64,000 nucleotides of DNA from a virus, in the IMG/VR virus record IMGVR_UViG_3300045988_092861, positions 14,226 to 78,225 of that record. One strand, written 5' to 3'. The notes under the pieces are model-generated. The model did no database searches, was not told where the DNA came from, and saw nothing but the letters and a program-made list of their open reading frames with translations. Every line of letters begins with the position of its first letter. Within the stretch, counting starts at the first letter, position 1. The position numbers were made by a program, and so were the translations under genes. Positions 2 through 63,890 of the stretch are shown piece by piece.

Positions 2-382
2 GCAGCAGAGGACGAACTGTTCGCAAAGGATTACGCCAAGCCGAACAAGAATATCGATGACTGCTGCGACTTTATCATCTCAAAGGTCAAGAAATCCGGA
101 AGACAAGGATTTGATGATGATGAGATTTATGGTCTTGCGGTTCATTATTATAATGAAGAAGAGGTTTCATTCAGCAAGAACATAAATTGCACCATCGTTA
201 CAAACCTCTCAGACCAAACCAAGGAGAGTTTGGAGAAGAAGGCAGAGGAGGAGTTCAAGCAAGCTAAGATTATGGAGCTCAAAAAGAAGGAGTCTGCAGA
301 GAAGGAGCGCTTGAAGAAGAAAGCCGAGGCCAAGAGAAAGAAGGATGCCGAGGTTGGGCAGTTGAGTTTGTTTGATTTTTAA
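2..382 (+). CDS. PcfK-like protein (family that includes Cas9 inhibitor AcrIIA9), 5'-truncated by window edge
   Basis: Frame 2 is open from the window start to TAA 380-382. Translation AAEDELFAKDYAKPNKNIDDCCDFIISKVKKSGRQGFDDDEIYGLAVHYYNEE, then a K/E-rich tail, matches PcfK-like proteins from memory. A PcfJ-like gene follows directly. Confidence 0.55.
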   Translation, partial: AAEDELFAKDYAKPNKNIDDCCDFIISKVKKSGRQGFDDDEIYGLAVHYYNEEEVSFSKNINCTIVTNLSDQTKESLEKKAEEEFKQAKIMELKKKESAEKERLKKKAEAKRKKDAEVGQLSLFDF

Positions 383-393
383 TTATGTGAGTT

Positions 394-1665
394 ATGAAAC
401 CAAGAAATAAGATAGAGCGTGAAGTCGTCAAACTATCCGTTAGAATACCAGAGTTATCTGACAAACAACGTCAGTGGGCCATCAAAACTTGTATTTCAGA
501 AGACGTCGCTTATAAGTATAGAGACAGATTTTCAAGAGGGTGTTTTTATCTTGTATGTACTTTCAAAGGATGGCAAGTTCTCAGATATTTTCAGATAAGA
601 GCAAAGTTTCGGTTTTATAAGATTGTTAAAGAAAAAATCTACTTCAAGGAGTGTATGCAACAATGGATGAAAGACGGGAAATACGTCTTCCTTGCCAGAC
701 AGAGGATTAACGGATATTTCACAGACGCTTTTACTTCAAGCGGGAATTTGGAAGTGAGAACACATACTGTATGGGGCTACCTTGGCGACCCACGCGAACT
801 TGGATTTGATGGAGTATATTATGCCTCGGTTCAAGACAAGTATAAGTATGCTCTCAGAGACTTCAAGAAAAAAATTTCATGTGATGAAATCTTTCGTTCT
901 GTTAATGCTAACACGTACAATGAAACCCTCATGAGACGAGATGTTGATATGTGGAAAATGTGCAAGTATCACGAAGCAGTCTTTGACAAAGGAAAAATGT
1001 CAGCTATTAAGATTGTAGTCAGACACGGAAAGGCAGAATATCTTTATGACAGCTTATGGTGGGATATGCTCGACAGTATCATATATCTTAAGAAAGATGT
1101 ACGCAACCCTTCAATAGTTTGCCCGCAGAATCTTCACGATGCACACGACAAGTGGCTTAAGGCTGCTGACAACAAGAAAAAGAAGATGGAGGACAGAATG
1201 ACTAAACTGCGCTTGATTGCTGAAGAAAAAATGCAACTCAGGTACCTGGAGCAAGCAGCTAAAGCCGAAGAGGAGAATAAGAAAAAGGCAGAAGCAATGG
1301 CTAATGTTTATATTGCCAGAAGAAAGCAGTTCTTTGACATTGACATAAAGGATGGCGCCATAGACATACAGGTTCTTAAGTCCGTCCAGGAGTTCTTTGA
1401 AGAAGGAAAAGAGATGGGGCACTGTGTATTTAGAAACGGCTATTACGATGTGAACAGAAAGCCGAACTGTCTCATACTTTCTGCCAAGGTAAACGGACAG
1501 CGTATGGAGACAATCGAGGTAAACTTAGCCGATGTTACCGTTGTTCAATGCCAGGGCCACAGAAACATAAACTCAGCTTTCCACGATACTATCCTAAAAC
1601 TCATCAACGACAATCTATGGCAGATAGAATCTAGGCTTCCGAACAGAGCAAGCAGAACGGCGTAA
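394..1665 (+). CDS. PcfJ-like protein
   Basis: 423 aa with ATG start. The C-terminal EEGKEMGHCVFRNGYYD...LILSAKVNGQRMETIEVNL...VVQCQGHRN resembles the PcfJ-like domain. It is paired with a PcfK-like gene, as in Bacteroidales mobile elements. Confidence 0.55.
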   Translation: MKPRNKIEREVVKLSVRIPELSDKQRQWAIKTCISEDVAYKYRDRFSRGCFYLVCTFKGWQVLRYFQIRAKFRFYKIVKEKIYFKECMQQWMKDGKYVFLARQRINGYFTDAFTSSGNLEVRTHTVWGYLGDPRELGFDGVYYASVQDKYKYALRDFKKKISCDEIFRSVNANTYNETLMRRDVDMWKMCKYHEAVFDKGKMSAIKIVVRHGKAEYLYDSLWWDMLDSIIYLKKDVRNPSIVCPQNLHDAHDKWLKAADNKKKKMEDRMTKLRLIAEEKMQLRYLEQAAKAEEENKKKAEAMANVYIARRKQFFDIDIKDGAIDIQVLKSVQEFFEEGKEMGHCVFRNGYYDVNRKPNCLILSAKVNGQRMETIEVNLADVTVVQCQGHRNINSAFHDTILKLINDNLWQIESRLPNRASRTA

Positions 1666-1670
1666 TTTTT

Positions 1671-1772
1671 TAGTATTTTTGACTAAAATTTCCGTTTGAT
1701 ATATTTGCATATATCAAATAATTTTCGTACCTTTGCGTATAAGAAGAGCCTATTTTATGGTGTTTTAGGCTA
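1671..1772 (+). promoter_or_regulatory. Family-1 promoter cassette, copy 1 (-33 TTTG / -7 TAnnTTTG) with palindromic operator and leader hairpin
   Basis: -33 TTTG 1704-1707, a 20-nt spacer, then -7 TACCTTTG 1728-1735. 9-bp inverted arms TTGATATAT/ATATATCAA (1696-1717) straddle the -33 box. Hairpin AGCCTA/TAGGCT at 1747-1771. The upstream TAGTATTTTT.ACTAAAAT block is shared with the other copies. Confidence 0.6.
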
Positions 1773-1840
1773 TCAAGCCTGCATATATTCATGTTTTTAT
1801 GTTAAAATATAGTTAATTTTAGATTTTAAGTATTTAATCA

Positions 1841-1861
1841 TCAAATATTTTATTTAAATTT
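1841..1861 (+). promoter_or_regulatory. Family-2 operator 17-mer TATTTAATCATCAAATA plus -7 box TAAATTTG
   Basis: The 17-mer at 1841-1857 recurs in inverted pairs at 55134/55177 and as related copies at 30590/30633/41212. TAAATTTGCAGC at 1854-1865 lies just 5' of ATG 1868. Confidence 0.5.
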
Positions 1862-1867
1862 GCAGCA

Positions 1868-2713
1868 ATGGAATACGATTACAGTAAGCTCAGAGAGTAC
1901 ATCAAGCGTTGTAAGTGGCAATGGGCTACTTCTATGATAGACGTTCCTCACGAGTATATCCACAGAGACAAATGCGCTTTGACACGTGATGAATTCTATT
2001 ACTTCGTCAGCGCACAAAGAGACAATGGAGTCCACGAAAGATGGGGAAAGTATAATTTCCCTTACCTTTACATTGACGGTTATAAGTATTGGACGATGGG
2101 TGACCCATTCGAGACTACTTGGATTTTGAACAGACAGAAGGTTTTCAACGAGTTCGATTTCCTTGAGTGGCCAATACCGCGAATCTATTCGAACCAGGAG
2201 ATGGACGTGATGGCAAGATCTATCATGTTCACGTTCAAGAACAGAAGATTTTTCGAGGCAGGCATCGGAAACGGAGACTTCGTCGCCTACACCAAGATAA
2301 AACCGGAAATGTATTATGGAGTTGATCCTAGCAAGAAAGCAATCAAGCAGTTCAGGGATAAGACCTCTGGTTTTTTCCGAAGATGTTCTACTATTTCTTT
2401 TGAGGAGGCGATAAAGAAATGGATGTCGGCAGACAGCGTTGTGGTTGCTCTTTTCGGTACAGCTTCCTACTTCATGCCTCAGTATCTCCGTAAACTGGGC
2501 GAGAGTGGTCTGGATTATTGCCTTATGTTCTACAAGGATGACTACACCCCTGCAGAGTTCGAGGAAATGCACCATTTCACCTACGACAGAATGCAGCTGA
2601 AATCAATGTTCCCGAATTGTAACATATACAATCACAAGAATTTCATAACCATTTCAAGTAAAAAAATCATCTGGCAACAGACGACATTAGAAAATGAAAT
2701 ATTCCCAGTATGA
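1868..2713 (+). CDS. SAM-dependent methyltransferase with N-terminal phage-type domain
   Basis: The C-terminal half carries FFEAGIGNGDF (motif I-like), YYGVDPS and VVALFGTASY. It is visibly paralogous to the next ORF. The N-terminal WQWATSM..PHEYIHR..YKYWTMG domain is common in phage proteins. Confidence 0.6.
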   Translation: MEYDYSKLREYIKRCKWQWATSMIDVPHEYIHRDKCALTRDEFYYFVSAQRDNGVHERWGKYNFPYLYIDGYKYWTMGDPFETTWILNRQKVFNEFDFLEWPIPRIYSNQEMDVMARSIMFTFKNRRFFEAGIGNGDFVAYTKIKPEMYYGVDPSKKAIKQFRDKTSGFFRRCSTISFEEAIKKWMSADSVVVALFGTASYFMPQYLRKLGESGLDYCLMFYKDDYTPAEFEEMHHFTYDRMQLKSMFPNCNIYNHKNFITISSKKIIWQQTTLENEIFPV

Positions 2714-3236
2714 TAAAATAGCAAGTAAGTACGACACTTTGTTTCGTGATGAAATGAGTCTCGTTGAGAACCACGAGGTGGGGGAAAATCTCCCACCTCT
2801 CAGTGGTTCAATTCTAGACATCGGATGCGGAACCGGCTTACTTACAGAGATTGCAGAAATCGACCCGCAGGAATACTTAGGAGTTGATCCTAGTAAAGGA
2901 ATGTTGGAGCAGTTCATTAACAAACACCCTGAATATAAGGAAAGGGTAGTCTGCGAGCCTTTCGACGGTAAAAACCTGGACTGCAAGAATTTTGATAACA
3001 TTGTAGCTTTGTTCGGCTCTCCATCTTATCTTTCGCGGTATGCTGTTCTTTCAATATCACGGTGTAAAGCCCGAAAGTTCTTGATGTTTTACAAGGAGAC
3101 GTATCACCCCGTCACTTACGAGAAATGCGATGTAGAATTTAGGCATTTCTTCTATTCCAAGAAGGTCTTGTGCAGTCTTTTCGGTGAAGAAAACGTATCA
3201 GAGTATCACAATTATTTAATAGTAAATTGCGTATGA
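2694..3236 (+). CDS. Class I SAM-dependent methyltransferase
   Basis: ILDIGCGTGLLTE (motif I), YLGVDPSKGMLEQF and IVALFGSPSYL. Paralogous to the C-terminal half of 1868-2713. Confidence 0.75.
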   Translation: MKYSQYDKIASKYDTLFRDEMSLVENHEVGENLPPLSGSILDIGCGTGLLTEIAEIDPQEYLGVDPSKGMLEQFINKHPEYKERVVCEPFDGKNLDCKNFDNIVALFGSPSYLSRYAVLSISRCKARKFLMFYKETYHPVTYEKCDVEFRHFFYSKKVLCSLFGEENVSEYHNYLIVNCV

Positions 3237-3892
3237 CATCACAGAAAGGTTTGCGTTATGATGGCAGTATTGATAAATACCCCATCACAGAAGGCGAGAT
3301 TTACAGTTTAGGCAATGGTAGCAAGATTACCATTGCCGATATTACTTTGGGGCTTCCAGAGTTTTCAAAGAATGCCGACTGCGTATTCATCGACCCAGCA
3401 GGAAGCAAAGGAGTCCTCAAAGCGTATTACACCAAGGCGGAGAAGCAATGCCCAGTTGACAATTTTGATGAGTTCGTTGCCCACATCAAGAGGTGCATCG
3501 AGCAGATTAATCCGGACAGACTATTCGTCGAGTGCTTCTACAGAAATAAGAAGCAGTTGGTTCCTATGGTAGAATCGTTATTCCCTCATGTAAAAATCTA
3601 CGAGAACACCTATTATCATAAGCCAGATTGCAAGTGTTGGATTATCCAAGGCTCCAAGCAGGCAGAAGACTGGGGACTCCAGGGAATGGATGAATGGGAT
3701 GCGGTGTTCAAGATTTGTAAGGATGTTCCGTTCAGCTCTATCACAGACTTCTTCATGGGTCAAGGACTTGTTGCCCAAGCAGCCTATGCTGCTGGCAAGG
3801 TTTTCTATGGTAGCGATATGAACAGAAATCGTTTGGCTGTAGCCATCAGCAAGGTTGCCAAGCGAGGTGGAGAATGGACAGTAACTAAATAA
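3233..3892 (+). CDS. Beta-class (N6A/N4C-type) DNA methyltransferase-like protein with non-canonical motif IV (DPAG)
   Basis: ATG 3233 overlaps the upstream stop (ATGA). N-terminal ...LPEFSKNADCVFIDPAG sits where DPPY is expected. C-terminal ITDFFMGQGLVAQAAYAAGKVFYGSDMN matches the FxGxG SAM-binding motif in the permuted beta-class order. Confidence 0.5.
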   Translation: MTSQKGLRYDGSIDKYPITEGEIYSLGNGSKITIADITLGLPEFSKNADCVFIDPAGSKGVLKAYYTKAEKQCPVDNFDEFVAHIKRCIEQINPDRLFVECFYRNKKQLVPMVESLFPHVKIYENTYYHKPDCKCWIIQGSKQAEDWGLQGMDEWDAVFKICKDVPFSSITDFFMGQGLVAQAAYAAGKVFYGSDMNRNRLAVAISKVAKRGGEWTVTK

Positions 3893-3900
3893 TTACGCAT

Positions 3901-4635
3901 ATGATTAAACTCTCTCAGATTATCATCCTCAATGTTCCGAAGCGAGAACGTGAGGGTAACTACCTTAAGAAGTTGATAGAGACCAGCACGAAGCCCTATG
4001 GCATTCCTGTCAGTATCTCTATGGACCGAGGTAAGGGTCTTTGGGATAATTATTCCCAAGCGTTGACGCAAGAGGTAGCGGAAGGAACCCATCGTATGAT
4101 TATCCATGATGACATTACCTTCGACCGTAACATTCTTGCCAAGATTTTACATATTCTCTCTTTTGCTCCAGAAAACAACGTTATCAGTTTCTACAATCCA
4201 ACAAATGGTGACTATACTGATTGTTACGCAAAGGGCAAGCACGTTATCTCTACAAAGACAAACTTCTGGCTGCAGGCAAGCGTATATCCAAACGACCTTG
4301 CCAAGGATTTTGTTGAAACATCAAACAAGATGACGGATGATCAGACACGTTATGATGATTCGCGTCTTAAGGCATACCTTCAGGCAAAGGGTATCGACCT
4401 TTACGCCATCGTTCCCGGTCTGGTTCAGCATTTCGGTGCATACAGAAGCACGTTCAACAATCCAGGCGCAGTAGGTGGCATTCCTCGAAACAGCAAGACC
4501 TACGACAACCAGTTTGATGTAGAGTCTGTAGATTGGGAGAGTGAGTTCAAGAATCCTTATTTGGCTAAGTCAAGCAAGGATTGGGTTAAGGAAATAGTAA
4601 ACAAGGAATTTCTCGATGAATACAAAAAACTCTAA
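3901..4635 (+). CDS. Possible GT-A/GT25-like glycosyltransferase (weak)
   Basis: N-terminal IIILNVPKREREGNYLKKL and MIIHDDITFD resemble the GT25 'INL.R..eR' and 'EDD' motifs. This is weak pattern-level evidence only. Confidence 0.3.
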   Translation: MIKLSQIIILNVPKREREGNYLKKLIETSTKPYGIPVSISMDRGKGLWDNYSQALTQEVAEGTHRMIIHDDITFDRNILAKILHILSFAPENNVISFYNPTNGDYTDCYAKGKHVISTKTNFWLQASVYPNDLAKDFVETSNKMTDDQTRYDDSRLKAYLQAKGIDLYAIVPGLVQHFGAYRSTFNNPGAVGGIPRNSKTYDNQFDVESVDWESEFKNPYLAKSSKDWVKEIVNKEFLDEYKKL

Positions 4636-5074
4636 GGAAAATCTAGCCTTGAAATTGGCGAAGGACAATATCGAGGTTGAGCAGGTGAAGCCGCTGCATA
4701 TAGAATACGTTAAGGTTGACGACATTTATCCGAATGACTATAACCCTAATACGCATGATGCAGACAGTTTTGACCTTCTCATCAAATCGTTGCTCTATTT
4801 CGGATTTACTCAGCCTATCGTTGTAAACCGCTCGACGATGCAGATCGTGGACGGAGAGAACAGATACCGTGCCGCCTGCGTCATTGGATATGAGATGGTT
4901 CCTGTATGCTTTGTTGATTTTGACGAAGAGAAGTTGAGATATGCAACAATCATGCACAATGCCGCTCGCGGTCACAACAACAATGAAATGATGGGCAGAC
5001 TTAAGGATTACCTTGACACCCATTTCAGCAATTCCAGCGACAAGGTATTATTAAACAATAGAAATAAGAAATGA
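4616..5074 (+). CDS. ParB/Srx-fold protein, IbrB-like (copy 1)
   Basis: YPNDYNPN...IVDGENRYRA...HNAARGHNNNEMM shares its NYNPN, DG.-R and HN.ARG.H motifs with 6230-6892. Confidence 0.65.
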   Translation: MNTKNSKENLALKLAKDNIEVEQVKPLHIEYVKVDDIYPNDYNPNTHDADSFDLLIKSLLYFGFTQPIVVNRSTMQIVDGENRYRAACVIGYEMVPVCFVDFDEEKLRYATIMHNAARGHNNNEMMGRLKDYLDTHFSNSSDKVLLNNRNKK

Positions 5075-6264
5075 TATTTTACAGTGACAAAAACGTTTAT
5101 GAGGCAGCTCTTGAAAGATTCAGATACATCTTTCGGGAGTTTTATGGTAAGCGTAAGATTGTCGTGACGATGTCGGGAGGAAAGGACTCTACCGTGGTTC
5201 TCAACCTTGCTCACGAGGTTATGAAGGAGATGGGAATTGAAAAGATTCCCGTCCTCTTCCTAGACCAAGAGGCAGAGACTCCAATGACTATCGAGTATAT
5301 ACGATACATCATGCACTTGCCGTGGGTTGAGCCATATTGGATTCAGTCATACTTCCAGGAATGGAATGCCTCAAAGGGAGAATGGTTCAATGTATGGGGG
5401 CCTGGAGAAAAATGGATTCGTGAGAAGGAACCAGATTCTTATGGAGATTTGGAAATCCCTCACAATCAGTATTTCTCCAAGACCCTCGATCAGGTACACA
5501 GAATGCTCTTTGGCAAAGACTACCTAACTTTGGGCGGTGTCCGTATCGAGGAATCGCCGGCACGTTTGTCTGGTCTTACCAGAGGCGAATGTCTTCCTGG
5601 CATAACATGGGGAGGTGGTGGCGGATATTATAAAGACGGCACACCGAGAAGTCTGGTGCTCTACCCTATTTGGGATTGGAAGGTTCATGATGTATGGTAT
5701 TACATCTTTAGCAACAAGCTTCCGTACTGCAAGCTCTATAACTATCAGTTCACGCAGAAGCCACTCAGAGCATGCCGAGTTAGTTCCCTCATCCATGAGC
5801 AGGCTATCCACGACTTAGGTTTCATCAAGGAGGTTGATCCATGGTTCTACGACAAGCTGGTGCGAAGAGTGGCAAACGTCAATACATCTGTACACGTCTT
5901 TAACGAAGTGGCAACATACTGCTACAACTTGCCACCTTATTTCAAGGATTGGGATGAATACGTTGATTATCTCGCAGACAATCTTTGTGAAGACAAGAAG
6001 AATGCGGAGACTATCAAGAAAGGCTACCGTTCCGCCAAGAAGAGAAATGTAGCTAAAGCCGGTCATTGCCAGGAGTGTATTGATTATGTCATACATCAGA
6101 TTGGCTATACAAGTGCCGTCTGCGTCATTGCGGAAGATTTCGGCATGAAGCGCATTCAGAGTGTAGAGCGTTCTTTGCGTCAGTATTTGAGCGACAATTA
6201 TGTTAAAATAGAAAAAGCTAATAAGGAATATGAATCTTCAAGAGAACATCAAGAAGGAGTTTGA
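5071..6264 (+). CDS. PAPS-reductase/PP-loop ATPase family protein, IbrA-like
   Basis: PP-loop VVTMSGGKDSTVV, about 400 aa with a long C-terminal extension. Flanked on both sides by IbrB-like ParB genes. ATGA-type overlap with the upstream gene. Confidence 0.8.
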   Translation: MIFYSDKNVYEAALERFRYIFREFYGKRKIVVTMSGGKDSTVVLNLAHEVMKEMGIEKIPVLFLDQEAETPMTIEYIRYIMHLPWVEPYWIQSYFQEWNASKGEWFNVWGPGEKWIREKEPDSYGDLEIPHNQYFSKTLDQVHRMLFGKDYLTLGGVRIEESPARLSGLTRGECLPGITWGGGGGYYKDGTPRSLVLYPIWDWKVHDVWYYIFSNKLPYCKLYNYQFTQKPLRACRVSSLIHEQAIHDLGFIKEVDPWFYDKLVRRVANVNTSVHVFNEVATYCYNLPPYFKDWDEYVDYLADNLCEDKKNAETIKKGYRSAKKRNVAKAGHCQECIDYVIHQIGYTSAVCVIAEDFGMKRIQSVERSLRQYLSDNYVKIEKANKEYESSREHQEGV

Positions 6265-6892
6265 TGCTGCCAAGGATAAGGTGCAGTTTTTGAACGACCT
6301 CAGAAAGTATATCAGTTCCTTATCTCCGGAGAAAGTCAACCCAGTAGATTGCGTGCTTTGGGTTGACAAGGATATGGTTGTAGCCAACAACTACAACCCT
6401 AACCACGTAGCAGATAAGGAAATGCGTCTTCTCTATACATCCGTGAGGGAAGACGGTTACACAATGCCTATCGTTACCATTTGGGACGAGAAGCTGCAGA
6501 AGTATGTAATCATCGACGGTTTCCACAGAAACCTCGTTATTCGCAAGTTTGCGGACATCAATGAGCGATGTGGCGGAAAGCTGCCGATTGTAGTCCTAGA
6601 CAAGGACATTGACCAGCGTATGGCATCAACCGTAAGACACAATCGTGCCCGTGGAAGTCACTCTGTCGATGGAATGGTAAACATCGTTTTCAATATGCTC
6701 AGAGATGGTGTGTCTGAGCGTGAGATTTGCGAAAAGGTAGGTCTGGAGCAGAAAGAGCTTGTAAAGCTTAAGTTTGTTACCGGTTTCGCCAAGATTTTCA
6801 AGAACTATAAGTACAATGCGGCTATCGAAAAGGTTGTCGACGAGAGACGCGTAGCAAGAGAGACAGCCAAGAAGAAGGAGGATAAGAAATGA
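6230..6892 (+). CDS. ParB/Srx-fold protein, IbrB-like (copy 2)
   Basis: ANNYNPNHV...IIDGFHRNLV...VRHNRARGSHSVDGM. Overlaps the IbrA-like stop by 35 nt. Confidence 0.7.
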   Translation: MNLQENIKKEFDAAKDKVQFLNDLRKYISSLSPEKVNPVDCVLWVDKDMVVANNYNPNHVADKEMRLLYTSVREDGYTMPIVTIWDEKLQKYVIIDGFHRNLVIRKFADINERCGGKLPIVVLDKDIDQRMASTVRHNRARGSHSVDGMVNIVFNMLRDGVSEREICEKVGLEQKELVKLKFVTGFAKIFKNYKYNAAIEKVVDERRVARETAKKKEDKK

Positions 6893-7521
6893 AAGTAAAG
6901 GTAGTTAAACTCAGTGAAATCTTTCCTTACTATGACAACCCTCGTGACAATACGAATGCGGTTGAGCCTACGAAGGAGAGTATCAAGCGTTTTGGATACG
7001 TTAAGCCTATCCTCGTTGATAAGGCAGGTGTAATCATTGCCGGTCACACAAGATATGTGGCTGCTTACCAGTTGGGAATGGAGTTCGTTCCTGTCGTTTA
7101 CTCGGATATGGACGACGAAATGGCAAAGAAGTACCGCATCCTCGATAACAAGCTGGCAGAGAAATCTTCCTTTGATGAAGACCAGCTTTTGGAGGAATTG
7201 CGCAACATGGAGGTTCCTACAGATATGCAGGCATTCTTCTTTGAGGACATCAATCAGATGCTCAACTTCTCTCTCGACAGCATCAACCAGCAGGCAGAAG
7301 AGTATGGTGGCTTCCAGAATGACTATTCTCAGGTTGATGATGAGAACTTCGAGACTCCATCAAATGAAGAGGCTGGCGAAAGCGAGGAAGCTCCTTCGGA
7401 TGAGGAGGAAGACCCTGCCAAGGATTTGTTCGTTCTCAAAGAGCGCGAGGACGGTTCACATTATATGAAGGTCGTTTGCCCATATTGTGGAAATATGGAA
7501 ACAATAGAAATTGAGGATTAA
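6889..7521 (+). CDS. ParB-like nuclease-domain protein with acidic linker and C-terminal CxxC
   Basis: KPILVDKAGVIIAGHTRYVAAYQLGMEFVPVV is typical of the ParB N-terminal domain. It has an E/D-rich linker and ends VVCPYCGNMETIEIED. Confidence 0.7.
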   Translation: MKVKVVKLSEIFPYYDNPRDNTNAVEPTKESIKRFGYVKPILVDKAGVIIAGHTRYVAAYQLGMEFVPVVYSDMDDEMAKKYRILDNKLAEKSSFDEDQLLEELRNMEVPTDMQAFFFEDINQMLNFSLDSINQQAEEYGGFQNDYSQVDDENFETPSNEEAGESEEAPSDEEEDPAKDLFVLKEREDGSHYMKVVCPYCGNMETIEIED

Positions 7522-7526
7522 CAGGT

Positions 7527-8144
7527 ATGGAAGAGATTAAGATTAATGACAAGGTAATTGAGTTACCTATTGACAGTATCGTGCCTCATGACGGTTCGCA
7601 CAAGACCGACGAGACGGCAGTACAGGCAATCATGCAGTCCATCAAGGATTTCGGCATCACTCAGCCTATTTCCGTTGACAAGAACAACGTAATTGTAACA
7701 GGTAACGGTGTGTATAAGGCAGCTAAGGCATTGGGAATGGATAAGGTTCCCTGCATTCGTCTTGACTATCTGACTGATGAGCAGATTAAGCAGTATAGAA
7801 TCGCTGATGACAAGACGTCCGAGTTCGCCACTTGGAACGAGAAGAAGCTTCGCAAGGAGCTCTCCTATCTCGGTGATCCTAACAGCATTCAGTTTGCTTT
7901 CGATGAGAGCATTGCCGGTATGCTTGGACTCAATGCTAAGCCAAAGGAACAGAAACCTGCGGCCGCACCTTCCAAGGCTGAGACTAACCATACGGCTAAG
8001 AAGGTCGTAACCGAAGCCCAGAAGGACCAGAAGTTCAAGGAGGAAATGAAGGGCGTTGAGGAGAATATCCAGGTCAAGCCTTCAGAGTATTATGAGTATA
8101 ATTGTTCCGCTTGCGGTAAACTGGTAAAAGTTAAGAAGCCATGA
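7527..8144 (+). CDS. ParB-like domain protein (degenerate catalytic motif) with C-terminal CxxC
   Basis: QPISVDKNNVIVTGNGVYKAAKALGMDKVPCI has GNGVY in place of GHTR. It ends YEYNCSACGKLVKVKKP. Confidence 0.6.
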   Translation: MEEIKINDKVIELPIDSIVPHDGSHKTDETAVQAIMQSIKDFGITQPISVDKNNVIVTGNGVYKAAKALGMDKVPCIRLDYLTDEQIKQYRIADDKTSEFATWNEKKLRKELSYLGDPNSIQFAFDESIAGMLGLNAKPKEQKPAAAPSKAETNHTAKKVVTEAQKDQKFKEEMKGVEENIQVKPSEYYEYNCSACGKLVKVKKP

Positions 8145-8677
8145 CAGATGAATCATCACAGCCGAAAGTAAAGTCTTTCGTACATAGAATTCCCAATCCT
8201 GTTGGAAGACCATACAAGATTAAGTCTTCTCAGGAATTATGGGATAAGTTTGTAGCTTACTGTGATGATGTTGAAAACGACCCTTGGCAGCAAAAGACTG
8301 GTAGCAATTCCATTGCAGGTGGCAGCGGCAAATCCACAAATTCCATGAGACAAGAGGTAAGGGTTTTCAGAAGAGCCTATACCCTTGTCGGATTTTGTGC
8401 TTTCTGTGGCATCGTTCAGAAATGGGCGGATTTCAAGAGAGGTAATCTTAAGAGACCAGGCTTTGAGCAGGTGATAACACAGATTGAGAATGTCGTGATG
8501 GCCCAGCAGATTGATGGCGCCATGCTTCATCAGTTTGATTCCAGCATTGTTGCAAGGCTCAACGGATTGGCAGACAAGCATATTCAAGAAGTAACAGGCA
8601 AGGATGGTGAGGACTTCAAGTTCCCTAAACTATCCTTGGATGATATTAAAGAATTACAGAAGATAAATGGACTTTGA
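8141..8677 (+). CDS. Terminase small subunit (putative)
   Basis: 178 aa, directly upstream of and overlapping TerL. The N-terminal GRPYKIKSSQELWDKFVAYCD resembles a TerS HTH region. Confidence 0.5.
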   Translation: MTDESSQPKVKSFVHRIPNPVGRPYKIKSSQELWDKFVAYCDDVENDPWQQKTGSNSIAGGSGKSTNSMRQEVRVFRRAYTLVGFCAFCGIVQKWADFKRGNLKRPGFEQVITQIENVVMAQQIDGAMLHQFDSSIVARLNGLADKHIQEVTGKDGEDFKFPKLSLDDIKELQKINGL

Positions 8678-10145
8678 GAAACAACGTTTTCTCCATAAGC
8701 AGTTAGTGGCTTCATCCCTACTGCAATTCACTACCAAGATGTTCGCCTATACTGCCCGACGTGAGTATGTTATAGGCGAACATCATAGGATTATATGTGA
8801 TGCGCTCATGGATGTTATAAGAGGAAAGACGAATAAGCTGATTATCAACATCAGCCCACGTTATGGAAAGACCCTCTTGTGCTCACAGATGTTCATCGCA
8901 TATGGTCTTGCGCTGAACCCTGCTTCAAAGTTTCTACATATATCTTATTCCGGAAGTCTCGTCCAAGACAACTCAATGGCGGTCAAGGACACGATAACTT
9001 CCGCATATTTCCAAACATTATTTCCGAATGTCAAAATCCGAAAGAACGATAACACAAGATCAAAATGGAGCACAACGGCAGGTGGTGGTGAGTATGCTAC
9101 ATCTACCTTGGGTCAGATCACAGGTTTTGGTGCAGGTCAGCCAGACTGGACCGAAGAAGACATAAAGAACATGGATAAGTTCATGGCTACGTTCAACCCT
9201 GGTCACTTTTCGGGAGCCATAGTTATCGATGACCCTTTACGACCAGATGATGCCTTGTCTGATAATGTAAGAGAGTCTATCAACAGACGCTTCGAGACAA
9301 CCATCCGTAACCGTGTAAACTCGCGTCACACGCCAATTATCATCGTCATGCAAAGATTGCACGAGCACGATTTGTGCGGTTACCTTCAAGAGATTGAGCC
9401 AAATGAGTGGAAGGTTGTTTCCCTCCCGGTAATACAGACAGACGAGGACGGAAAGGAGCGAGCATTGTGGCCATGGAAGCATACACTGGAAGAGCTGTAT
9501 AAAATCAAGCATGCCAGCGAGTTCGTATTTGAGACACAGTACATGCAGAACCCTACCCCTATGGAAGGTCTTATGTACCATGCCTTCAGAACATACGACG
9601 AGCTGCCGGACAGAAGGTATGCAAGAATGATTGGCAACTACACCGACTCGGCAGATACTGGTTTCGACTTCCTTTGCTCTATATGCTTCGATGCACATGA
9701 TGACGGTTACTATGTTACCGATGTTCTATACACTAAGCGACCGATGGAATACACGGAGCCAGCGCAAGCCAATATGGTTAAGCGTAATCAGACAGACGTG
9801 TGCTTCGTCGAGAGTAACAACGGTGGACGCTCTTATGCCCGCAATGTTGAGCGCATAACAAGGGAACACGGAAACAGAATCACCCAGTTCGTAACGTTCA
9901 CGCAATCGAAGAACAAACAGATTAGAATTTTCACTCGCTCCAGCGAGGTAAATAATAAATTAGTATTCCCTTCTAATTGGGAGCAGTTGTGGCCGGAGTT
10001 TGCCCACGACATGAAATCCTACAGAAAGGAAGGATATAACGCCCACGATGATGCGCCGGACGCTTGTACGGGCATCATAGAGAAGTGCGAGGAGTGGCTT
10101 AACAATGCTACCGATGCACAGCTCAGGCAAGGAGGATTCTTGTAA
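8667..10145 (+). CDS. terL: Terminase large subunit
   Basis: 492 aa with Walker A-like SPRYGKT, Walker B-like AIVIDDP and a C-terminal nuclease-like region. Its size and position are typical of TerL. Confidence 0.85.
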   Translation: MDFEKQRFLHKQLVASSLLQFTTKMFAYTARREYVIGEHHRIICDALMDVIRGKTNKLIINISPRYGKTLLCSQMFIAYGLALNPASKFLHISYSGSLVQDNSMAVKDTITSAYFQTLFPNVKIRKNDNTRSKWSTTAGGGEYATSTLGQITGFGAGQPDWTEEDIKNMDKFMATFNPGHFSGAIVIDDPLRPDDALSDNVRESINRRFETTIRNRVNSRHTPIIIVMQRLHEHDLCGYLQEIEPNEWKVVSLPVIQTDEDGKERALWPWKHTLEELYKIKHASEFVFETQYMQNPTPMEGLMYHAFRTYDELPDRRYARMIGNYTDSADTGFDFLCSICFDAHDDGYYVTDVLYTKRPMEYTEPAQANMVKRNQTDVCFVESNNGGRSYARNVERITREHGNRITQFVTFTQSKNKQIRIFTRSSEVNNKLVFPSNWEQLWPEFAHDMKSYRKEGYNAHDDAPDACTGIIEKCEEWLNNATDAQLRQGGFL

Positions 10146-10229
10146 TTTCATATTTTTTAACTATGCTCGTAAGGCGTTTGCTCGTGAGAGTAAGCGCCTT
10201 AACTATTTGAATATCAATCTATTGTAATT

Positions 10230-10369
10230 TAGTATTTTTAACTAAAATAATTATTAGTATATTTGCATATATCAAATAATTTTCGTATCTTTGCATATAG
10301 ATAAAAGGTAGTACTTTTGACTATTCAGAGCCTACCTTACAAGTTGAACCAATTAAAATTATAAAGATT
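10230..10369 (+). promoter_or_regulatory. Family-1 promoter cassette, copy 2
   Basis: -33 TTTG 10262-10265, a 20-nt spacer, then -7 TATCTTTG 10286-10293. Leader hairpin AAGGTAG/CTACCTT at 10305-10338, then GAACCAATTAAAATT at 10346-10360. Differs from 18513-18652 at about 3 positions over about 143 nt. Confidence 0.65.
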
Positions 10370-10597
10370 ATGAAGACAATTAAAGTTACCAATGCTCCAA
10401 AGTCAATGATTATGGTACTCGTTGAGAATGACAATAGATTCGTTTTTAACAGCGGTGACATATTTATTATGGGAACGAGCAACGTAGAGAAGTTCAAGAA
10501 ATACATAAAAACAAAAGGCATATCTTCCTCTGAGATTGATAGCCTCTCCTACGAAGTCGTTGATATTGACGAGGTAAGTGATTTGTATAATTTCTAA
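10370..10597 (+). CDS. Hypothetical protein
   Basis: 75-aa ORF with ATG directly after the conserved leader. No recognisable motif. Confidence 0.5.
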   Translation: MKTIKVTNAPKSMIMVLVENDNRFVFNSGDIFIMGTSNVEKFKKYIKTKGISSSEIDSLSYEVVDIDEVSDLYNF

Positions 10598-11776: not shown

Positions 11777-12571
11777 ATGAAACCAATGTTAGCAACAAGA
11801 TATTATCCGTCACAGACGAAGTTTCCTTGCTTCGTTCAGCCTAAATACGACGGAGTTAGATGCGTCCTTCATGAAGGAGAAGGTGGTGAGGTTCATCTCA
11901 CATCGAGAGGTGGCAAGGAATATGATGTTCCTCAGATTAAGGCGTGGGGAGAGAAGCACCGCGGTATGCTTCCTTTGGATGGTGAGATATACAACCACCA
12001 GGAATTGACCTTTCAACAGATATGTTCTGCTGTAAAGTGCCGCTCTACCATGACCGACAAGCTACGTATGGTTATCTACGATGCACAGATTCCAGGAAGC
12101 TTTGCTACCAGATGGAAAGCTCTGCAGGAGGAATTTGCTCCCATTGATCCAAACGGACCTGTGTACCTTACGCAGACTTTCGTTGCCCATTCAGAGAAGG
12201 ACATCAAGCGATGGCACAAGATATTCGTTTCCACCGGTTACGAGGGTGCCATTATCAGAAATGCAGATGGAATCTATACCGAGGGCAGAAGCAATGACCT
12301 TATGAAGCTGAAATCGTTCGATACGACGGAGTTCAAGGTGGTAGATGTTTTGGAAGCGGAGGGCAATGATGCGGGTACCGCTATATTCAAACTGAAGTGT
12401 GGAGAGCATGAGTTCTGCGCCCGCCCAGTAGGTCCAAGGTCACTCAGAGCCCAATACTTAGCCGACAAGTACGAGTTGATAGGTATGGCGGCGACTGTTC
12501 AGCACCAGGGTTATTCTGATGCTGGAGTGCCGAGATTTCCTGTATTGTTGAACATTAGGGATTACGAGTAA
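11777..12571 (+). CDS. ATP-dependent DNA ligase (minimal, about 264 aa)
   Basis: Nucleotidyltransferase motif I QPKYDGVRC (KxDG), motif IV GYEGAIIRN and motif V DLMKLK. Confidence 0.9.
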   Translation: MKPMLATRYYPSQTKFPCFVQPKYDGVRCVLHEGEGGEVHLTSRGGKEYDVPQIKAWGEKHRGMLPLDGEIYNHQELTFQQICSAVKCRSTMTDKLRMVIYDAQIPGSFATRWKALQEEFAPIDPNGPVYLTQTFVAHSEKDIKRWHKIFVSTGYEGAIIRNADGIYTEGRSNDLMKLKSFDTTEFKVVDVLEAEGNDAGTAIFKLKCGEHEFCARPVGPRSLRAQYLADKYELIGMAATVQHQGYSDAGVPRFPVLLNIRDYE

Positions 12572-14167: not shown

Positions 14168-14200
14168 TAATCAACGATTTAAATTCGTAATTTTGGTTAA

Positions 14201-14275
14201 AAGATTTGGCAAATTGGCAAAATTTTCGTACCTTTGCATATAGAAAAAGGGTAGTAATTTTGTCTAAGAGCCTAC
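14201..14275 (+). promoter_or_regulatory. Family-1-type promoter, copy 4 (partial cassette)
   Basis: -33 TTTG 14205-14208, a 20-nt spacer, then -7 TACCTTTG 14229-14236. The ATTTTCGTACCTTTGCATATAG core is identical to the other copies. A short GTAG/CTAC hairpin follows. Confidence 0.55.
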
Positions 14276-15182: not shown

Positions 15183-15297
15183 TAAAGGAGAAAGATAAAA
15201 GCACTGAAATTCATCCGGAACCTAAGCCCAAATTGAGTCAGGCAGGGGCGCCAATTAGGCCTGTTTGACCTTGGATGGTTTCAGTGCTTCATTTTTA
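15183..15297 (+). ncRNA. Candidate ~115-nt rod-like sRNA; may also act as a bidirectional terminator
   Basis: An 11-bp closing stem (15199-15209 with 15279-15289) continues into about 8 more pairs (15211-15218 with 15271-15278). Inner CAGGC/GCCTG stem. A 3' CATTTTT run follows. It sits between convergent genes. Confidence 0.4.
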
Positions 15298-16863: not shown

Positions 16864-17035
16864 ACAATTTCATTTTAAAGTGTTTACAGCAATCCCAGTT
16901 GAGAAGAACGCTCCATTCTTGATATGGGCATTTGGCTAGGATAGGCTGACCTTTAAGGCTCATACTATGGAAGTCAGTAGCATAAGCGCATTCACGGCAG
17001 AAGTGCCGTTTCTTATCTTCTTTCTTTTTTCTCAT
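16841..17035 (-). CDS. Small zinc-ribbon-like protein
   Basis: 64 aa with CRECAY...KCPY...DCCKH cysteines. Sits between the portal and MuF genes. Confidence 0.45.
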   Translation of the reverse strand: MRKKKEDKKRHFCRECAYATDFHSMSLKGQPILAKCPYQEWSVLLNWDCCKHFKMKLYEKAKTA

Positions 17036-17037
17036 GA

Positions 17038-18483: not shown

Positions 18484-18512
18484 CAGATATATTCGCATAT
18501 ATTTAACGCATT

Positions 18513-18652
18513 TAGTATTTTTAACTAAAATATCTATTAGTATATTTGCATATATCAAATAATTTTCGTACCTTTGCATATAGATAAAAGGTAGTACTTT
18601 TGACTATTCAGAGCCTACCTTACAAGTTGAACCAATTAAAATTATAAAGATT
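18513..18652 (+). promoter_or_regulatory. Family-1 promoter cassette, copy 3
   Basis: -33 TTTG 18545-18548 and -7 TACCTTTG 18569-18576. Hairpin at 18588-18621. GAACCAATTAAAATT at 18629-18643. Near-identical to copy 2. Confidence 0.65.
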
Positions 18653-19084
18653 ATGAATAATTCAATTGAAACTAAGAAGGCAGAGGTTAGAAAGAACATC
18701 AAGAATACACTTGAGTCAGCCAAGATTAAGATTATTAACGTAATTTCAGTTTGTCCTGATTGGGAGGTAGAATATATCAACTTAGGTTTTAAGTCACTTA
18801 ACGTTCGTTTGATTTTAAAAGGAGTCGAAAGAGACAGAAGCCTGGAAATTCGTTACCAGAAAAAAGATGGCAACTTCCAGGAAGAGTCTTTTAACACCAA
18901 TGTGGCAAGCTGTGGAGAATTTGACCTTCTTGAGGCAAACGACAACCTTAAGTACTACACGGCGATTGGCGACATTCTCAACCACAAAGATATGCTTTCA
19001 CTGTTGAAAGATACTATGGTTTATTTCACAAATAAACTTGTTGAGTTGGATAAAGAATATGATAAATTAGACCAGGAGGATTAG
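18653..19084 (+). CDS. Hypothetical protein
   Basis: 143-aa ORF, the first gene after cassette copy 3. Confidence 0.55.
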   Translation: MNNSIETKKAEVRKNIKNTLESAKIKIINVISVCPDWEVEYINLGFKSLNVRLILKGVERDRSLEIRYQKKDGNFQEESFNTNVASCGEFDLLEANDNLKYYTAIGDILNHKDMLSLLKDTMVYFTNKLVELDKEYDKLDQED

Positions 19085-62551: not shown

Positions 62552-62584
62552 GGAGCTTCCAAGGGTTAGTCCTTTGGTTGCTCC
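62552..62584. terminator. Bidirectional terminator hairpin between convergent genes
   Basis: GGAGCTTCCAAGGG / CCTTTGGTTGCTCC forms 12 pairs, interrupted by a 2-nt mismatch, with a 5-nt loop. It overlaps the integrase stop codon. Confidence 0.6.
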
Positions 62585-63825: not shown

Positions 63826-63890
63826 TTGCAAGCTATTTGCAAGCAGAATTGTGCAAAAATGTGCAAGAATGTGCAAGAATGTGCAGGATT
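63826..63890. repeat. Phased TGCAAG-type direct repeats (two at 11-bp spacing, then four 10-bp units)
   Basis: TTTGCAAG at 63826 and 63837, then GTGCAAAAAT GTGCAAGAAT GTGCAAGAAT GTGCAGGATT at 63851-63890. Lies between the integrase start and the tRNA. Confidence 0.85.

What the first reader, a model, noticed from the sequence alone, without database searches (positions are those of the whole stretch)
4616..6892. IbrB-IbrA-IbrB sandwich: a PP-loop enzyme flanked by two diverged ParB/Srx paralogues
The PAPS-reductase-like protein (SGGKDS PP-loop) is flanked on both sides by ParB/Srx-fold proteins. These share the NYNPN, DG.-R and HN.ARG.H motifs but are otherwise diverged. E. coli ibrAB is a simple pair, so a duplicated IbrB partner suggests a heteromeric or two-substrate arrangement. 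Overlapping stops and starts (4616/4635, 5071/5074, 6230/6264) imply stoichiometric co-translation.
Basis: partly seen in the sequence, partly recalled or inferred. Interest (0 to 1): 0.65.

Follow-up and report, generated by a model that had tools for sequence, protein, structure and literature searches.

The report
Phage IbrA/IbrB module with extra ParBs
A temperate gut phage of Segatella copri carries, in one operon with its DNA-packaging genes, an ATP-using enzyme surrounded by four ParB-like proteins plus methyl- and sugar-transferases. This is one version of a very common but never-tested phage gene set that most likely marks phage DNA chemically.

Summary
A PAPS-reductase/DUF3440 PP-loop protein (IbrA type, 5071-6264) is flanked by two ParB/Srx proteins that share the NYNPN, DG..R and HN.ARG motifs, and the genes overlap.

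It is also incomplete. Two more ParB-N genes follow (6889-7521, 7527-8144). All four lie in a gap-free 11-gene unit running from methyltransferases and a GT-A glycosyltransferase-like gene through to TerS/TerL.

The downstream flank (6230-6892) is a full-length IbrB/YbdM orthologue. The upstream flank (4616-5074) is not a local duplicate of it. It is a C-terminally truncated member of an old sister clade of IbrB.

Extra ParB genes beside IbrA/IbrB are the rule in phages: 44 of 72 diverse viral loci have one, including cultured Arthrobacter, Mycobacterium and Bacillus phages. The "sandwich" is therefore not unusual.

IbrA has no conserved cysteine, and its model most resembles FMN adenylyltransferase. 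It is therefore neither a sulphur-metabolism gene nor DndC-like.

The best reading is a DNA-modification module co-expressed with the packaging genes. The chemistry is unknown and nothing about it has been characterised in the literature searched. It is a new variant of a known, uncharacterised kind, of moderate interest.

The parts
1677..1741 (+). Repeated promoter-like cassette ending in TACCTTTGCGTATA (Bacteroidetes-type TAnnTTTG -7 box). It marks the start of the 11-gene unit.
   Evidence: Four copies, at 1677, 10235, 14178 and 18518. Reading it as a promoter is inference.
1868..2713 (+). 281-aa protein with no family match; first gene of the unit
   Evidence: No Pfam, PHROG or NCBIfam hit. 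Homologues sit at the same position in L085, L088 and L103.
2694..3236 (+). Small SAM-dependent methyltransferase (180 aa)
   Evidence: Methyltransf_25/12/11 at E 3e-8 to 4e-6. Conserved in the related islands of L085, L088, L098, L100 and L268.
3227..3892 (+). N6/N4 DNA-methylase-like protein (221 aa) whose catalytic motif reads DPAG instead of DPP(Y/F/W)
   Evidence: Weak PF01555 hit at residues 172-206. 28% identity, E 7e-23, to the L268 homologue, which has DPPW and passes the Pfam cut-off.
3901..4635 (+). GT-A-fold glycosyltransferase-like protein (244 aa); its end overlaps the start of ParB1 by 20 nt
   Evidence: AF2 model pLDDT 87. Foldseek PDB top hits are mimivirus R655, GnT-I and ColGalT1, E 9e-7 to 1e-4. 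D70-D71 and Q176-H177 are invariant. It lies directly upstream of a ParB1-class gene in 8 lineages.
4616..5074 (+). ParB1: minimal ParB/Srx core (152 aa) of an IbrB sister clade, lacking the IbrB insertion and C-terminal region. It is the most constrained protein of the module.
   Evidence: PF02195 E 1e-12. Scores on my own HMMs: ParB1 253, ParB-MT 72, IbrB 62 bits. 37 invariant positions in 19 homologues. Compared with L085, its middle third has 32 synonymous and 0 amino-acid changes.
5071..6264 (+). IbrA/YbdN-type PP-loop enzyme (PAPS_reduct + DUF3440), predicted adenylyltransferase-like, with no conserved cysteine
   Evidence: 27% identity, E 7e-24, to YbdN. No invariant Cys in the 13- or 40-sequence alignments. 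AF2 pLDDT 90; top folds are FMN adenylyltransferase/FAD synthase, then PAPS reductase and CysD.
6230..6892 (+). ParB2: full-length IbrB/YbdM orthologue (DGFHR, RHNRARGSH, C-terminal helical region)
   Evidence: phrog_2159 E 6e-63. 37% identity, E 7e-48, to YbdM. An IbrB gene follows IbrA in 64 of 72 viral loci.
6889..7521 (+). ParB3: methylase-type ParB-N protein (NPRD, GHTR, DNKLAE) with an acidic linker and a terminal CxxC
   Evidence: PF02195 E 1e-8 and phrog_620 E 2e-41. No similarity to YbdM.
7527..8144 (+). ParB4: paralogue of ParB3 in which the box-II arginine is lost (GNGV); predicted not to bind NTP
   Evidence: 38% identity, E 6e-24, to ParB3. The loss (GNGV/GNAL) is shared by all five orthologues examined. 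The consequence for NTP binding is inferred from R-to-A mutants in PMC12704722.
8141..8677 (+). Small terminase subunit (P22 gp3 type)
   Evidence: PF16677 GP3_package E 8e-14.
8667..10145 (+). Large terminase subunit
   Evidence: Weak Terminase_6C hit, and its position after TerS. The homologue in L103 hits the Terminase-T7 RNaseH-like family.
10235..10299 (+). Next copy of the promoter-like cassette; marks the end of the unit

Best explanation
The three genes are the centre of an 11-gene unit (1868-10145) in a temperate Segatella copri phage. The unit most likely modifies phage DNA around the time of packaging.

Proposed roles:
- The fixed core is the pair IbrA (a PP-loop ATP pyrophosphatase/adenylyltransferase-like enzyme) plus IbrB (ParB2, an NTP-binding ParB/Srx protein), the same pair as E. 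coli YbdN/YbdM. By analogy with DndC/DndB and DpdA/DpdB, IbrB would bring or gate the enzyme on DNA while IbrA activates a phosphate or carbonyl group with AMP.
- ParB1, the upstream flank, is a second, ancient IbrB-clade protein reduced to its nucleotide-binding core. It travels with the GT-A glycosyltransferase-like gene and a DNA-methylase-like gene. It is more likely an adaptor that couples these tailoring enzymes to the core than a duplicated IbrA subunit.
- ParB3 and ParB4 are a third class, of the kind normally fused to phage DNA methylases. One of them is an inactive-looking partner.

Shown here: gene content, family membership, conservation, co-inheritance, linkage to terminase, and the absence of catalytic cysteines.

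Inferred: DNA as the substrate, the division of labour among the proteins, and the timing.
For: - Family assignments.
- Tight 11-gene array between two copies of a Bacteroidetes-type promoter cassette.
- IbrA followed by IbrB is nearly universal, and extra ParB-N genes are common: 72 viral loci; cultured phages.
- The module sits directly upstream of terminases of unrelated types: GP3_package with a TerL whose L103 homologue has a weak Terminase-T7 RNaseH-like hit, Terminase_6, Terminase_3, and actinophage terminases.
- Neighbouring enzymes are of DNA-modification types and vary by lineage. They include an N6/N4 DNA methylase with an intact DPPW motif in relatives, SAM methyltransferases, a GNAT, and a GT-A fold protein. 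In Microbacterium phage Hendrix, glucosyltransferase, methyltransferase and N-acyltransferase genes lie directly before the PAPS-reductase homologue.
- ParB1-class proteins always lie directly after the GT-A gene (8 lineages) and always have IbrA and IbrB within about 1 kb. In Mu-like prophages a full-length ParB1-class protein is the only ParB found beside an IbrA-like gene.
- Between otherwise 96-100% identical phages, the block from mid-ParB1 to the 3' part of TerS is swapped as a unit. Four-fold site divergence is 0.43-0.67 inside the block against 0.02-0.20 outside.
- IbrA has no invariant Cys and most resembles FMN adenylyltransferase.
- The phage encodes no cysteine desulfurase and no ParA.
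- A precedent exists for a ParB-like ATPase working with a DNA-modifying enzyme: DpdB/DpdA, as summarised in PMC12839542. ParB-fold fusions to phage DNA methylases bind NTPs (PMC12704722).
Against: - No modified base or backbone has been shown for any phage carrying this module.
- No published biochemistry exists for IbrA, IbrB, YbdN or YbdM.
- The window's own DNA-methylase-like protein has a degenerate catalytic motif (DPAG).
- Linkage to terminase fits a packaging role equally well.
- E. coli IbrAB was described genetically as regulators of eib gene expression (PMC4541368 cites Sandt and Hill), and YbdNM sits in a metabolic regulon (PMC9068703). Neither points to DNA modification.
- Which protein ParB1 actually contacts is inferred only from gene order. 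The recombination block groups ParB1 with IbrA, whereas adjacency groups it with the GT-A gene.
Confidence: 0.5

Rival explanations
1. Packaging accessory. The ParB paralogues, with IbrA, act with TerS in recognising, organising or processing the phage genome for packaging, for example as NTP-gated clamps loaded near pac. They do not modify DNA chemically.
For: - The module abuts terminase genes in unrelated phage lineages.
- It lies in the same gap-free array as TerS/TerL, between two promoter cassettes.
- The block that is exchanged between near-identical phages runs from ParB1 through most of TerS, so these genes are co-inherited with the DNA-recognition subunit.
- Mycobacterium phage Gadjet has no annotated TerS between the IbrB-type gp5 and the terminase gp6.
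Against: - A recognisable TerS is present here and in Wheelbite.
- IbrA/IbrB pairs also occur away from terminase: Streptococcus phage Pika beside a helicase and E. coli ybdNM in the chromosome.
- Methyl-, acetyl- and glycosyl-transferases have no obvious role in packaging.
- A PP-loop enzyme has no known role in packaging.
Confidence: 0.2
2. Transcription control. IbrA/IbrB act as co-activators of prophage or host gene expression, as the E. coli names imply. The extra ParB proteins would then be DNA-binding regulators of late genes or of lysogenic-conversion genes.
For: - Public annotation reads 'co-activator of prophage gene expression IbrA' (Rhizobium phage L338C), and PMC4490671 uses the same description.
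- The C-terminal region shared by IbrB and YbdM (aligned) reads as HTH-like by eye; this was not tested with any tool.
Against: - A conserved PP-loop catalytic site (invariant SGGKDS, D-x-E, G-x-R-x-x-E-S-x-x-R) is not expected of a pure co-activator.
- ParB1 lacks the C-terminal region altogether.
- Co-variation with tailoring enzymes is unexplained by this reading.
Confidence: 0.12
3. Prophage-encoded defence or superinfection exclusion of the Dnd/BREX-type-4 kind. On this reading the module marks DNA in the lysogen to discriminate against incoming phages.
For: - Weak PADLOC hits of IbrA to BrxP (E 1e-11) and DndC (E 2e-8).
- The phage is temperate: it has an integrase at 62566-63876, and a copy lies inside a 1.64-Mb Segatella copri contig.
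Against: - The PADLOC hits cover only the PP-loop segment (residues 11-81).
- No restriction or effector partner, cysteine desulfurase or PglZ was found. PF00266 is absent from the genome and there are no such PADLOC hits among the neighbours.
- The genes sit in the terminase operon, which is not expected to be expressed in a lysogen.
- The same module occurs in the phages, though I did not check their lifestyle.
Confidence: 0.1
4. Auxiliary sulphur-metabolism gene. On this reading the 'PAPS reductase' boosts host sulphate assimilation, as phage PAPS reductases are usually annotated.
For: - The PHROG category is 'moron, auxiliary metabolic gene'.
- The literature states this view for phage PAPS reductases.
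Against: - There is no invariant cysteine anywhere in the family, so the thioredoxin-dependent catalytic Cys of CysH is missing.
- All NCBIfam CysH, CysD and PAPS-reductase scores are far below their cut-offs.
- The obligate ParB partner and the terminase linkage are unexplained.
Confidence: 0.03

Closest known systems
E. coli YbdN/YbdM (K-12) and IbrA/IbrB (ECOR-9 island)
   Same: The same two families in the same order, IbrA then IbrB, with overlapping genes (28 nt in K-12). IbrA is 27% identical to YbdN (E 7e-24) and ParB2 is 37% identical to YbdM (E 7e-48).
   Different: The E. coli loci are simple pairs under a LysR regulator in the chromosome. Here there are three additional ParB paralogues of two other classes, plus methyltransferases, a GT-A fold protein and the terminase, all in one array. 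The biochemical function is unknown in both.
ParB - PAPS-reductase - ParB arrays of cultured phages (Arthrobacter phage Wheelbite gp5-gp7, Mycobacterium phage Gadjet gp1/gp4/gp5, Bacillus phage 031MP004 gp79/gp80/gp84)
   Same: A ParB-N gene before IbrA and an IbrB-type gene after it, often with a methyltransferase, next to the terminase or at the genome end.
   Different: In those phages the upstream ParB is of the methylase type, not the ParB1/IbrB-sister class, and there is no GT-A gene. None has been studied functionally.
DndB/DndC (DNA phosphorothioation) and BrxP (BREX type 4)
   Same: A PAPS-reductase-family PP-loop enzyme paired with a ParB-fold protein that has a DGxHR-type motif. Both systems act on DNA.
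   Different: IbrA has no conserved cysteines or Fe-S ligands. The phage has no cysteine desulfurase and no DndD/E or PglZ. The TIGR03183 score is 34 bits against a cut-off of 290.
DpdA/DpdB (7-deazaguanine DNA modification)
   Same: A ParB-like ATPase is needed alongside a DNA-modifying enzyme (PMC12839542). This is the best mechanistic precedent for an enzyme plus ParB pair.
   Different: The enzyme there is a transglycosylase, not a PP-loop protein, and there is no sequence relationship beyond the ParB fold.
ParB-N fused to DNA methyltransferases in phages (phrog_498; PADLOC MTase_II PDLC03229)
   Same: ParB3 and ParB4 match the ParB-N part of these fusions (E 4e-31 and 1e-30, and 7e-19 and 2e-17). 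In relatives, ParB1-class genes lie directly before an N6/N4 methylase gene, in the same order as in the fusions.
   Different: Here the ParB-N domains stand alone and the methylase-like genes are separate.
Eukaryotic FMN adenylyltransferase (FAD synthase) and CysD
   Same: These are the closest solved folds and sequences to the IbrA catalytic domain. Both transfer AMP to a phosphate or sulphate acceptor without a catalytic cysteine.
   Different: Identity is only 15-18%, they have no DUF3440 domain and no ParB partner.

Membership tests
IbrA/YbdN family (PAPS_reduct + DUF3440) | PAPS_reduct domain with a PP-loop SGGKDS motif, followed by DUF3440 | tested here: met
   PF01507 63.6 bits (cut-off 22.5); PF11922 25.7 bits (cut-off 25). 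SGGKDS is invariant. phrog_2302 E 4e-67.
IbrA/YbdN family (PAPS_reduct + DUF3440) | Full-length similarity to E. coli YbdN and an adjacent IbrB-type gene | tested here: met
   27% identity over 328 aa, E 7e-24. The IbrB-type gene overlaps its 3' end.
IbrB/YbdM family - downstream flank 6230-6892 | ParB/Srx core with NxYNPN, DGFHR and RHNRARGxH, the insertion after DGFHR, and the C-terminal region | tested here: met
   37% identity over 183 aa to YbdM, E 7e-48. Motifs shown. Falls inside the IbrB clade, support 100/99.
IbrB/YbdM family - upstream flank 4616-5074 | IbrB-type core motifs (NPN, DGxxR, HNxARG) | tested here: met
   NDYNPN, DGENR and HNAARG are present. 34% identity over 128 aa to YbdM, E 1e-16.
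IbrB/YbdM family - upstream flank 4616-5074 | IbrB insertion after the DGxHR motif, the C-terminal region with the YSxxW tail, and placement inside the IbrB clade | tested here: not met
   The protein ends about 30 residues after box III and has no insertion. It forms a separate clade. Full-length clade members, such as L268, do have the tail.
Canonical partition ParB (ParABS) | TIGR00180 above cut-off, an HTH plus C-terminal dimerisation domain, and a ParA partner | tested here: not met
   TIGR00180 scores are 47, 39 and 30 bits against a cut-off of 58.45. No ParA-type ATPase (PF13614) occurs in the 78-kb genome.
DndC / DNA phosphorothioation | DndC equivalog score, conserved cysteines or Fe-S ligands, and a cysteine desulfurase partner | tested here: not met
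   TIGR03183 34 bits against a cut-off of 290. No invariant Cys. No PF00266 in the genome.
Assimilatory PAPS reductase (CysH) | Equivalog score and a catalytic C-terminal cysteine | tested here: not met
   TIGR00434 20.7 bits against 165; TIGR02057 16.9 against 254. No invariant Cys.
GT-A glycosyltransferases (for 3901-4635) | GT-A Rossmann-like fold with a DxD-type acidic motif and a downstream metal-binding His | tested here: met
   Foldseek probability 1.0 to GT-A enzymes, though TM is only about 0.5. D70-D71 and Q176-H177 are invariant.
GT-A glycosyltransferases (for 3901-4635) | Glycosyltransferase activity and identity of the acceptor | not testable with these tools
No Pfam, PHROG or NCBIfam match.
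NTP-binding ParB-CTPase fold | Box-II (P-motif) arginine | tested here: met
   Present in ParB1 (GENR), ParB2 (GFHR) and ParB3 (GHTR). Lost in ParB4 (GNGV) and in all its orthologues. Actual nucleotide binding was not tested.

The most novel reading that the evidence does not exclude
The IbrA/IbrB-ParB cassette would be a still-undescribed kind of DNA hypermodification machine coupled to packaging. On this reading, NTP-gated ParB-fold proteins load on phage DNA. They recruit an adenylyltransferase-like PP-loop enzyme that activates a DNA phosphate or base, and swappable glycosyl-, methyl- and acetyl-transferases then build a lineage-specific adduct. The nearly invariant mini-ParB (ParB1) would be the hub joining the tailoring enzymes to the core.
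Probability: 0.15. Interest if true: 0.85.

Novelty: new variant of a known kind. Interest (0 to 1): 0.5.

Why it matters
IbrA/IbrB-type pairs are among the commonest unexplained gene sets next to phage terminases. [quoted passage not shown]

This window gives a clear dissection of one rich version:
- three distinct ParB classes around one PP-loop enzyme;
- a glycosyltransferase-fold partner;
- a natural cassette swap that defines which genes are inherited together;
- one mini-ParB under extreme purifying selection.

If the module does modify DNA, it would add a new chemistry to phage anti-restriction. It would also give the ParB-CTPase fold a new job. It occurs in phages of Segatella copri, a major human gut bacterium, and in easily handled actinophages, so it is directly testable.

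Tried and rejected
- Near-identity DNA search of the phage collection found nothing.
- Six literature searches found no functional study of phage IbrA/IbrB or of YbdN/YbdM beyond regulation by CitR.
- PADLOC hits to BrxP, DndC and SspD cover only the PP-loop and were not taken as membership.
- Sigma-70 promoter and terminator scans gave no more sites than shuffled sequence and were not used.
- A distant GT-A alignment (A4) had no stretch conserved enough to search with. The closer alignment (A5) mostly returned the window's own clade.
- The ParB tree has three clades and no outgroup, so it cannot show that ParB1 is the sister of IbrB. That link rests on motifs and on the full-length L268 relative.
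- My first inference, that ParB1 belongs to the upstream block because its protein is 95% identical in L085, was wrong. Synonymous-site analysis puts two thirds of ParB1 inside the deeply diverged block.
- No multimer structure prediction was available to test IbrA-IbrB, IbrA-ParB1, GT-A-ParB1 or ParB3-ParB4 contacts.
- The DUF3440 half of IbrA is all-helical. It gave no separate fold match, because the whole-protein search was dominated by the PP-loop domain.

Full report
**What is there.** The window is bases 14226-78225 of a complete 78,225-bp viral record with direct terminal repeats. The phage is temperate. A tyrosine integrase lies at 62566-63876. A copy of the module with 98% ParB1 identity sits inside a 1.64-Mb contig of Segatella copri N016-9 (L264).

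- 5071-6264 is a PAPS_reduct + DUF3440 protein with an SGGKDS PP-loop. It matches phrog_2302 at E 4e-67 and is 27% identical to E. coli K-12 YbdN (E 7e-24).
- 6230-6892 has no Pfam hit. It is a full-length IbrB/YbdM orthologue: 37% identity over 183 aa, E 7e-48, and phrog_2159 at E 6e-63.
- 4616-5074 is a 152-aa ParB_N protein (E 1e-12). It aligns to the downstream flank at 32% identity (E 1e-8) and somewhat better to YbdM (34%, E 1e-16).
- The shared motifs and the 20-, 4- and 35-nt overlaps are real.

Two further ParB_N genes follow directly: 6889-7521 and 7527-8144, 38% identical to each other (E 6e-24). After them come TerS (GP3_package) and TerL.

Upstream lie four more genes:
- a 281-aa protein with no family match;
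- a SAM methyltransferase;
- an N6/N4 DNA-methylase-like protein;
- a 244-aa protein with no family match. Its AF2 model (pLDDT 87) is a GT-A glycosyltransferase fold (mimivirus R655, GnT-I, ColGalT1; E 9e-7 to 1e-4), and its acidic DD pair and a QH motif are invariant.

All eleven genes from 1868 to 10145 overlap or are at most 8 nt apart. They lie between two copies of a repeated cassette that ends in a Bacteroidetes-type TAnnTTTG box (1677-1741 and 10235-10299). I read this as one transcription unit that includes the terminase.

**Three classes of ParB.** Pairwise scores, custom HMMs, a motif alignment and a tree separate three classes.
1. IbrB proper: NxYNPN, DGFHR, an insertion of roughly 6-20 residues, RxNRA(R/K)GxH and a C-terminal region ending in YSxxW. 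Members are ParB2, YbdM, Gadjet gp5, Wheelbite gp7, Bacillus 031MP004 gp84, FCL-2 gp08 and Pika.
2. The ParB1 class: the same NPN and HNxARG motifs, but DGE(N/H)R and no insertion.
3. The methylase type: NPR, GHTR, DNKLAE. Members are ParB3, ParB4, Gadjet gp1, Wheelbite gp2 and gp5, and 031MP004 gp79.

ParB1 scores 253 bits on its own class HMM, 72 on the methylase type and 62 on IbrB.

The link between ParB1 and IbrB comes from bacterial genomes. In Mu-like prophages of Kapabacteria, Ignavibacteria, Planctomycetota and others, a 289-aa protein has a core 54% identical to ParB1 (E 4e-39). It carries the IbrB C-terminal region and aligns to YbdM over 163 aa (36% identity, E 2e-25). There it is the only ParB found in the fetched stretch beside an IbrA-like gene, a SAM methyltransferase and an intact DPPW DNA methylase, directly upstream of the terminase and the Mu portal.

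So the window's ParB1 is a C-terminally truncated member of an old sister lineage of IbrB. It is not a local duplicate of ParB2. ParB3 and ParB4 are each other's closest relatives. In ParB4 and all four orthologues examined, the box-II arginine is replaced (GNGV/GNAL). According to the R-to-A mutants in PMC12704722, that should abolish nucleotide binding.

**How common is the arrangement?** A pattern search with a diverse IbrA alignment returned 80 viral loci, of which 72 are not close relatives of the window.
- 25 have only IbrA followed by IbrB.
- 2 have IbrB followed by IbrA.
- 18 have IbrA, IbrB and then one or two methylase-type ParBs.
- 23 have a ParB-N gene upstream of IbrA as well as a ParB-N gene downstream (an IbrB in 22 of them).
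- In total, 44 of 72 (61%) have at least one extra ParB-N gene. This is a lower bound, because many contigs are cut.

Annotated cultured phages show the same pattern.
- Arthrobacter phage Wheelbite: gp5 ParB, gp6 PAPS reductase, gp7 ParB, gp8 methyltransferase, gp9 TerS, gp10 TerL.
- Mycobacterium phage Gadjet: gp1, gp4, gp5 and then the terminase gp6.
- Bacillus phage 031MP004: gp79, gp80, gp81 methyltransferase, gp84.

What is lineage-specific here is the class of the upstream ParB and its GT-A neighbour.

**Which genes ParB1 travels with.**
- In eight lineages with a clear homologue of the GT-A gene, a ParB1-class gene follows it with a 4-20-nt overlap, and IbrA plus IbrB lie within about 1 kb. 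The lineages are the window's clade, L085, L098, L100, L103, L184, L185/L186 and a JGI contig.
- In five of the eight, another gene is inserted between ParB1 and IbrA: a GNAT in L103, and an N6/N4 methylase-like gene in L098 and L184.
- Relatives whose IbrA is 54% or 44% identical (L088, L090) lack both the GT-A gene and ParB1. They keep IbrA, IbrB, ParB, ParB, TerS and TerL.

**A natural cassette swap.** A comparison with L085 is informative. That phage is 96-100% identical in DNA from about 1400 to 4600 and 92-96% identical again from about 8600 to 10000. In between, identity falls to 52-84%.

Four-fold degenerate site divergence:

| Gene | Divergence |
|---|---|
| Four upstream genes | 0.02-0.13 |
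| ParB1 | 0.57 |
| IbrA | 0.63 |
| IbrB | 0.67 |
| ParB3 | 0.49 |
| ParB4 | 0.64 |
| TerS | 0.43 |
| TerL | 0.20 |

The breakpoints fall in the first third of ParB1 and the last third of TerS. ParB1, IbrA, IbrB, ParB3, ParB4 and TerS are thus exchanged as one cassette.

Within this anciently diverged cassette, protein divergence differs sharply. IbrA has changed at 34% of residues, IbrB at 25%, ParB3 at 30% and ParB4 at 40%. ParB1 has changed at only 7 of 151, and its middle third has 32 synonymous and no amino-acid changes. Across all lineages ParB1 is also the best-conserved protein of the island. That is the pattern expected of a small protein with several obligate contacts.

**Chemistry.**
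- Alignments of 13 and of 40 IbrA homologues have no invariant cysteine.
- The invariant residues are the PP-loop, a D-x-E, G-x-R-x-x-E-S-x-x-R and P-x-x-D-W.
- The closest solved sequences and folds are FMN adenylyltransferase/FAD synthase, then PAPS reductase and CysD.
- All CysH, CysD and DndC equivalog scores are far below their cut-offs.
- The phage has no cysteine desulfurase and no ParA.

IbrA is therefore neither a sulphate-assimilation gene nor a DndC-type sulphurtransferase. AMP transfer to a phosphate-like acceptor is the most economical guess, and that is inference.

**Interpretation.** The best-supported reading (confidence about 0.5) is a DNA-modification module expressed with the packaging genes.
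- IbrA plus IbrB form the fixed core.
- Lineage-specific tailoring enzymes (methyl-, acetyl- and glycosyl-transferases) vary around it.
- The extra ParB-fold proteins act as DNA-loading or coupling subunits.

DNA as the target rests on three points: the intact DNA methylases in sister islands, the ParB fold, and the precedents DndB/DndC and DpdB/DpdA.

The rivals are a packaging-accessory role, which the co-inheritance with TerS makes a serious alternative, transcription control as the E. coli names imply, prophage defence, and sulphur metabolism. I found no experimental work on any member.

Notes from other agents in this scan describe the same module in at least 78 other genomes and reach similar readings. 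They agree with mine but are not independent evidence.

**Verdict.** This is a rich new variant of a known but uncharacterised kind (IbrA/IbrB, YbdN/YbdM). It is not a novel triad.

Noticed in passing
window 4766-8500 compared with L085: Two otherwise 96-100% identical phages carry deeply diverged alleles of one cassette running from mid-ParB1 to the 3' part of TerS. Four-fold site divergence is 0.43-0.67 inside the cassette and 0.02-0.20 outside. This suggests allelic replacement of the whole IbrA/ParB/TerS block.
   Followed up: yes
window 3227-3892: The N6/N4 DNA-methylase-like protein has DPAG where its homologues in L268, L184 and L098 have DPPW. It may be inactive or repurposed.
   Followed up: partly
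window 6889-8144: ParB3 and ParB4 each end in a single CxxC after a long acidic or low-complexity linker. ParB4 and all its orthologues have lost the box-II arginine.
   Followed up: partly
window 1677-1741, 10235-10299, 14178-14242, 18518-18582: A cassette of 65-148 nt occurs four times. It contains a palindrome and a TAnnTTTG box typical of Bacteroidetes promoters. The copies at 10227-10374 and 18510-18657 are 98% identical.
   Followed up: partly
window 2-1665; L085 363-2599: A PcfJ-like gene lies just upstream of the island. In relatives, PcfK-like and DpnD/PcfM-like genes are also present. These families are typical of conjugative elements.
   Followed up: no
L265-L285 (e.g. L268 3031-11925; L273 and L274 in one genome): Mu-like prophages in Kapabacteria, Ignavibacteria, Planctomycetota, Bacteroidetes and other MAGs share a compact version of the island: SAM methyltransferase, IbrA-like gene, DPPW methylase, full-length ParB1-class protein, terminase and Mu portal. 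One chromosome carries two copies.
   Followed up: partly
L003 (Microbacterium phage Hendrix 94205-97753): Glucosyltransferase, methyltransferase, N-acyltransferase and PAPS-reductase genes lie in a row at the extreme right end of the genome. No ParB gene is detected in the flank. The glucosyltransferase is weakly collinear with the window's GT-A protein (21% identity, E 0.004).
   Followed up: partly
window 15295-18453 (- strand): The SPP1-type portal gene (17038-18453) and a 522-aa gene with no family match (15295-16863) lie on the minus strand, about 7 kb from the terminase, in a genome otherwise almost entirely on the plus strand.
   Followed up: no
window 11777-12571: An ATP-dependent DNA ligase is encoded shortly after the terminase operon.
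   Followed up: no
window 62566-63876 (-); L264: A Bacteroidetes-type tyrosine integrase (Arm-DNA-bind_5 + Phage_int_SAM_5) is present, and a near-identical module copy lies inside a Segatella copri chromosome contig. Together these identify the host and a temperate lifestyle.
   Followed up: partly
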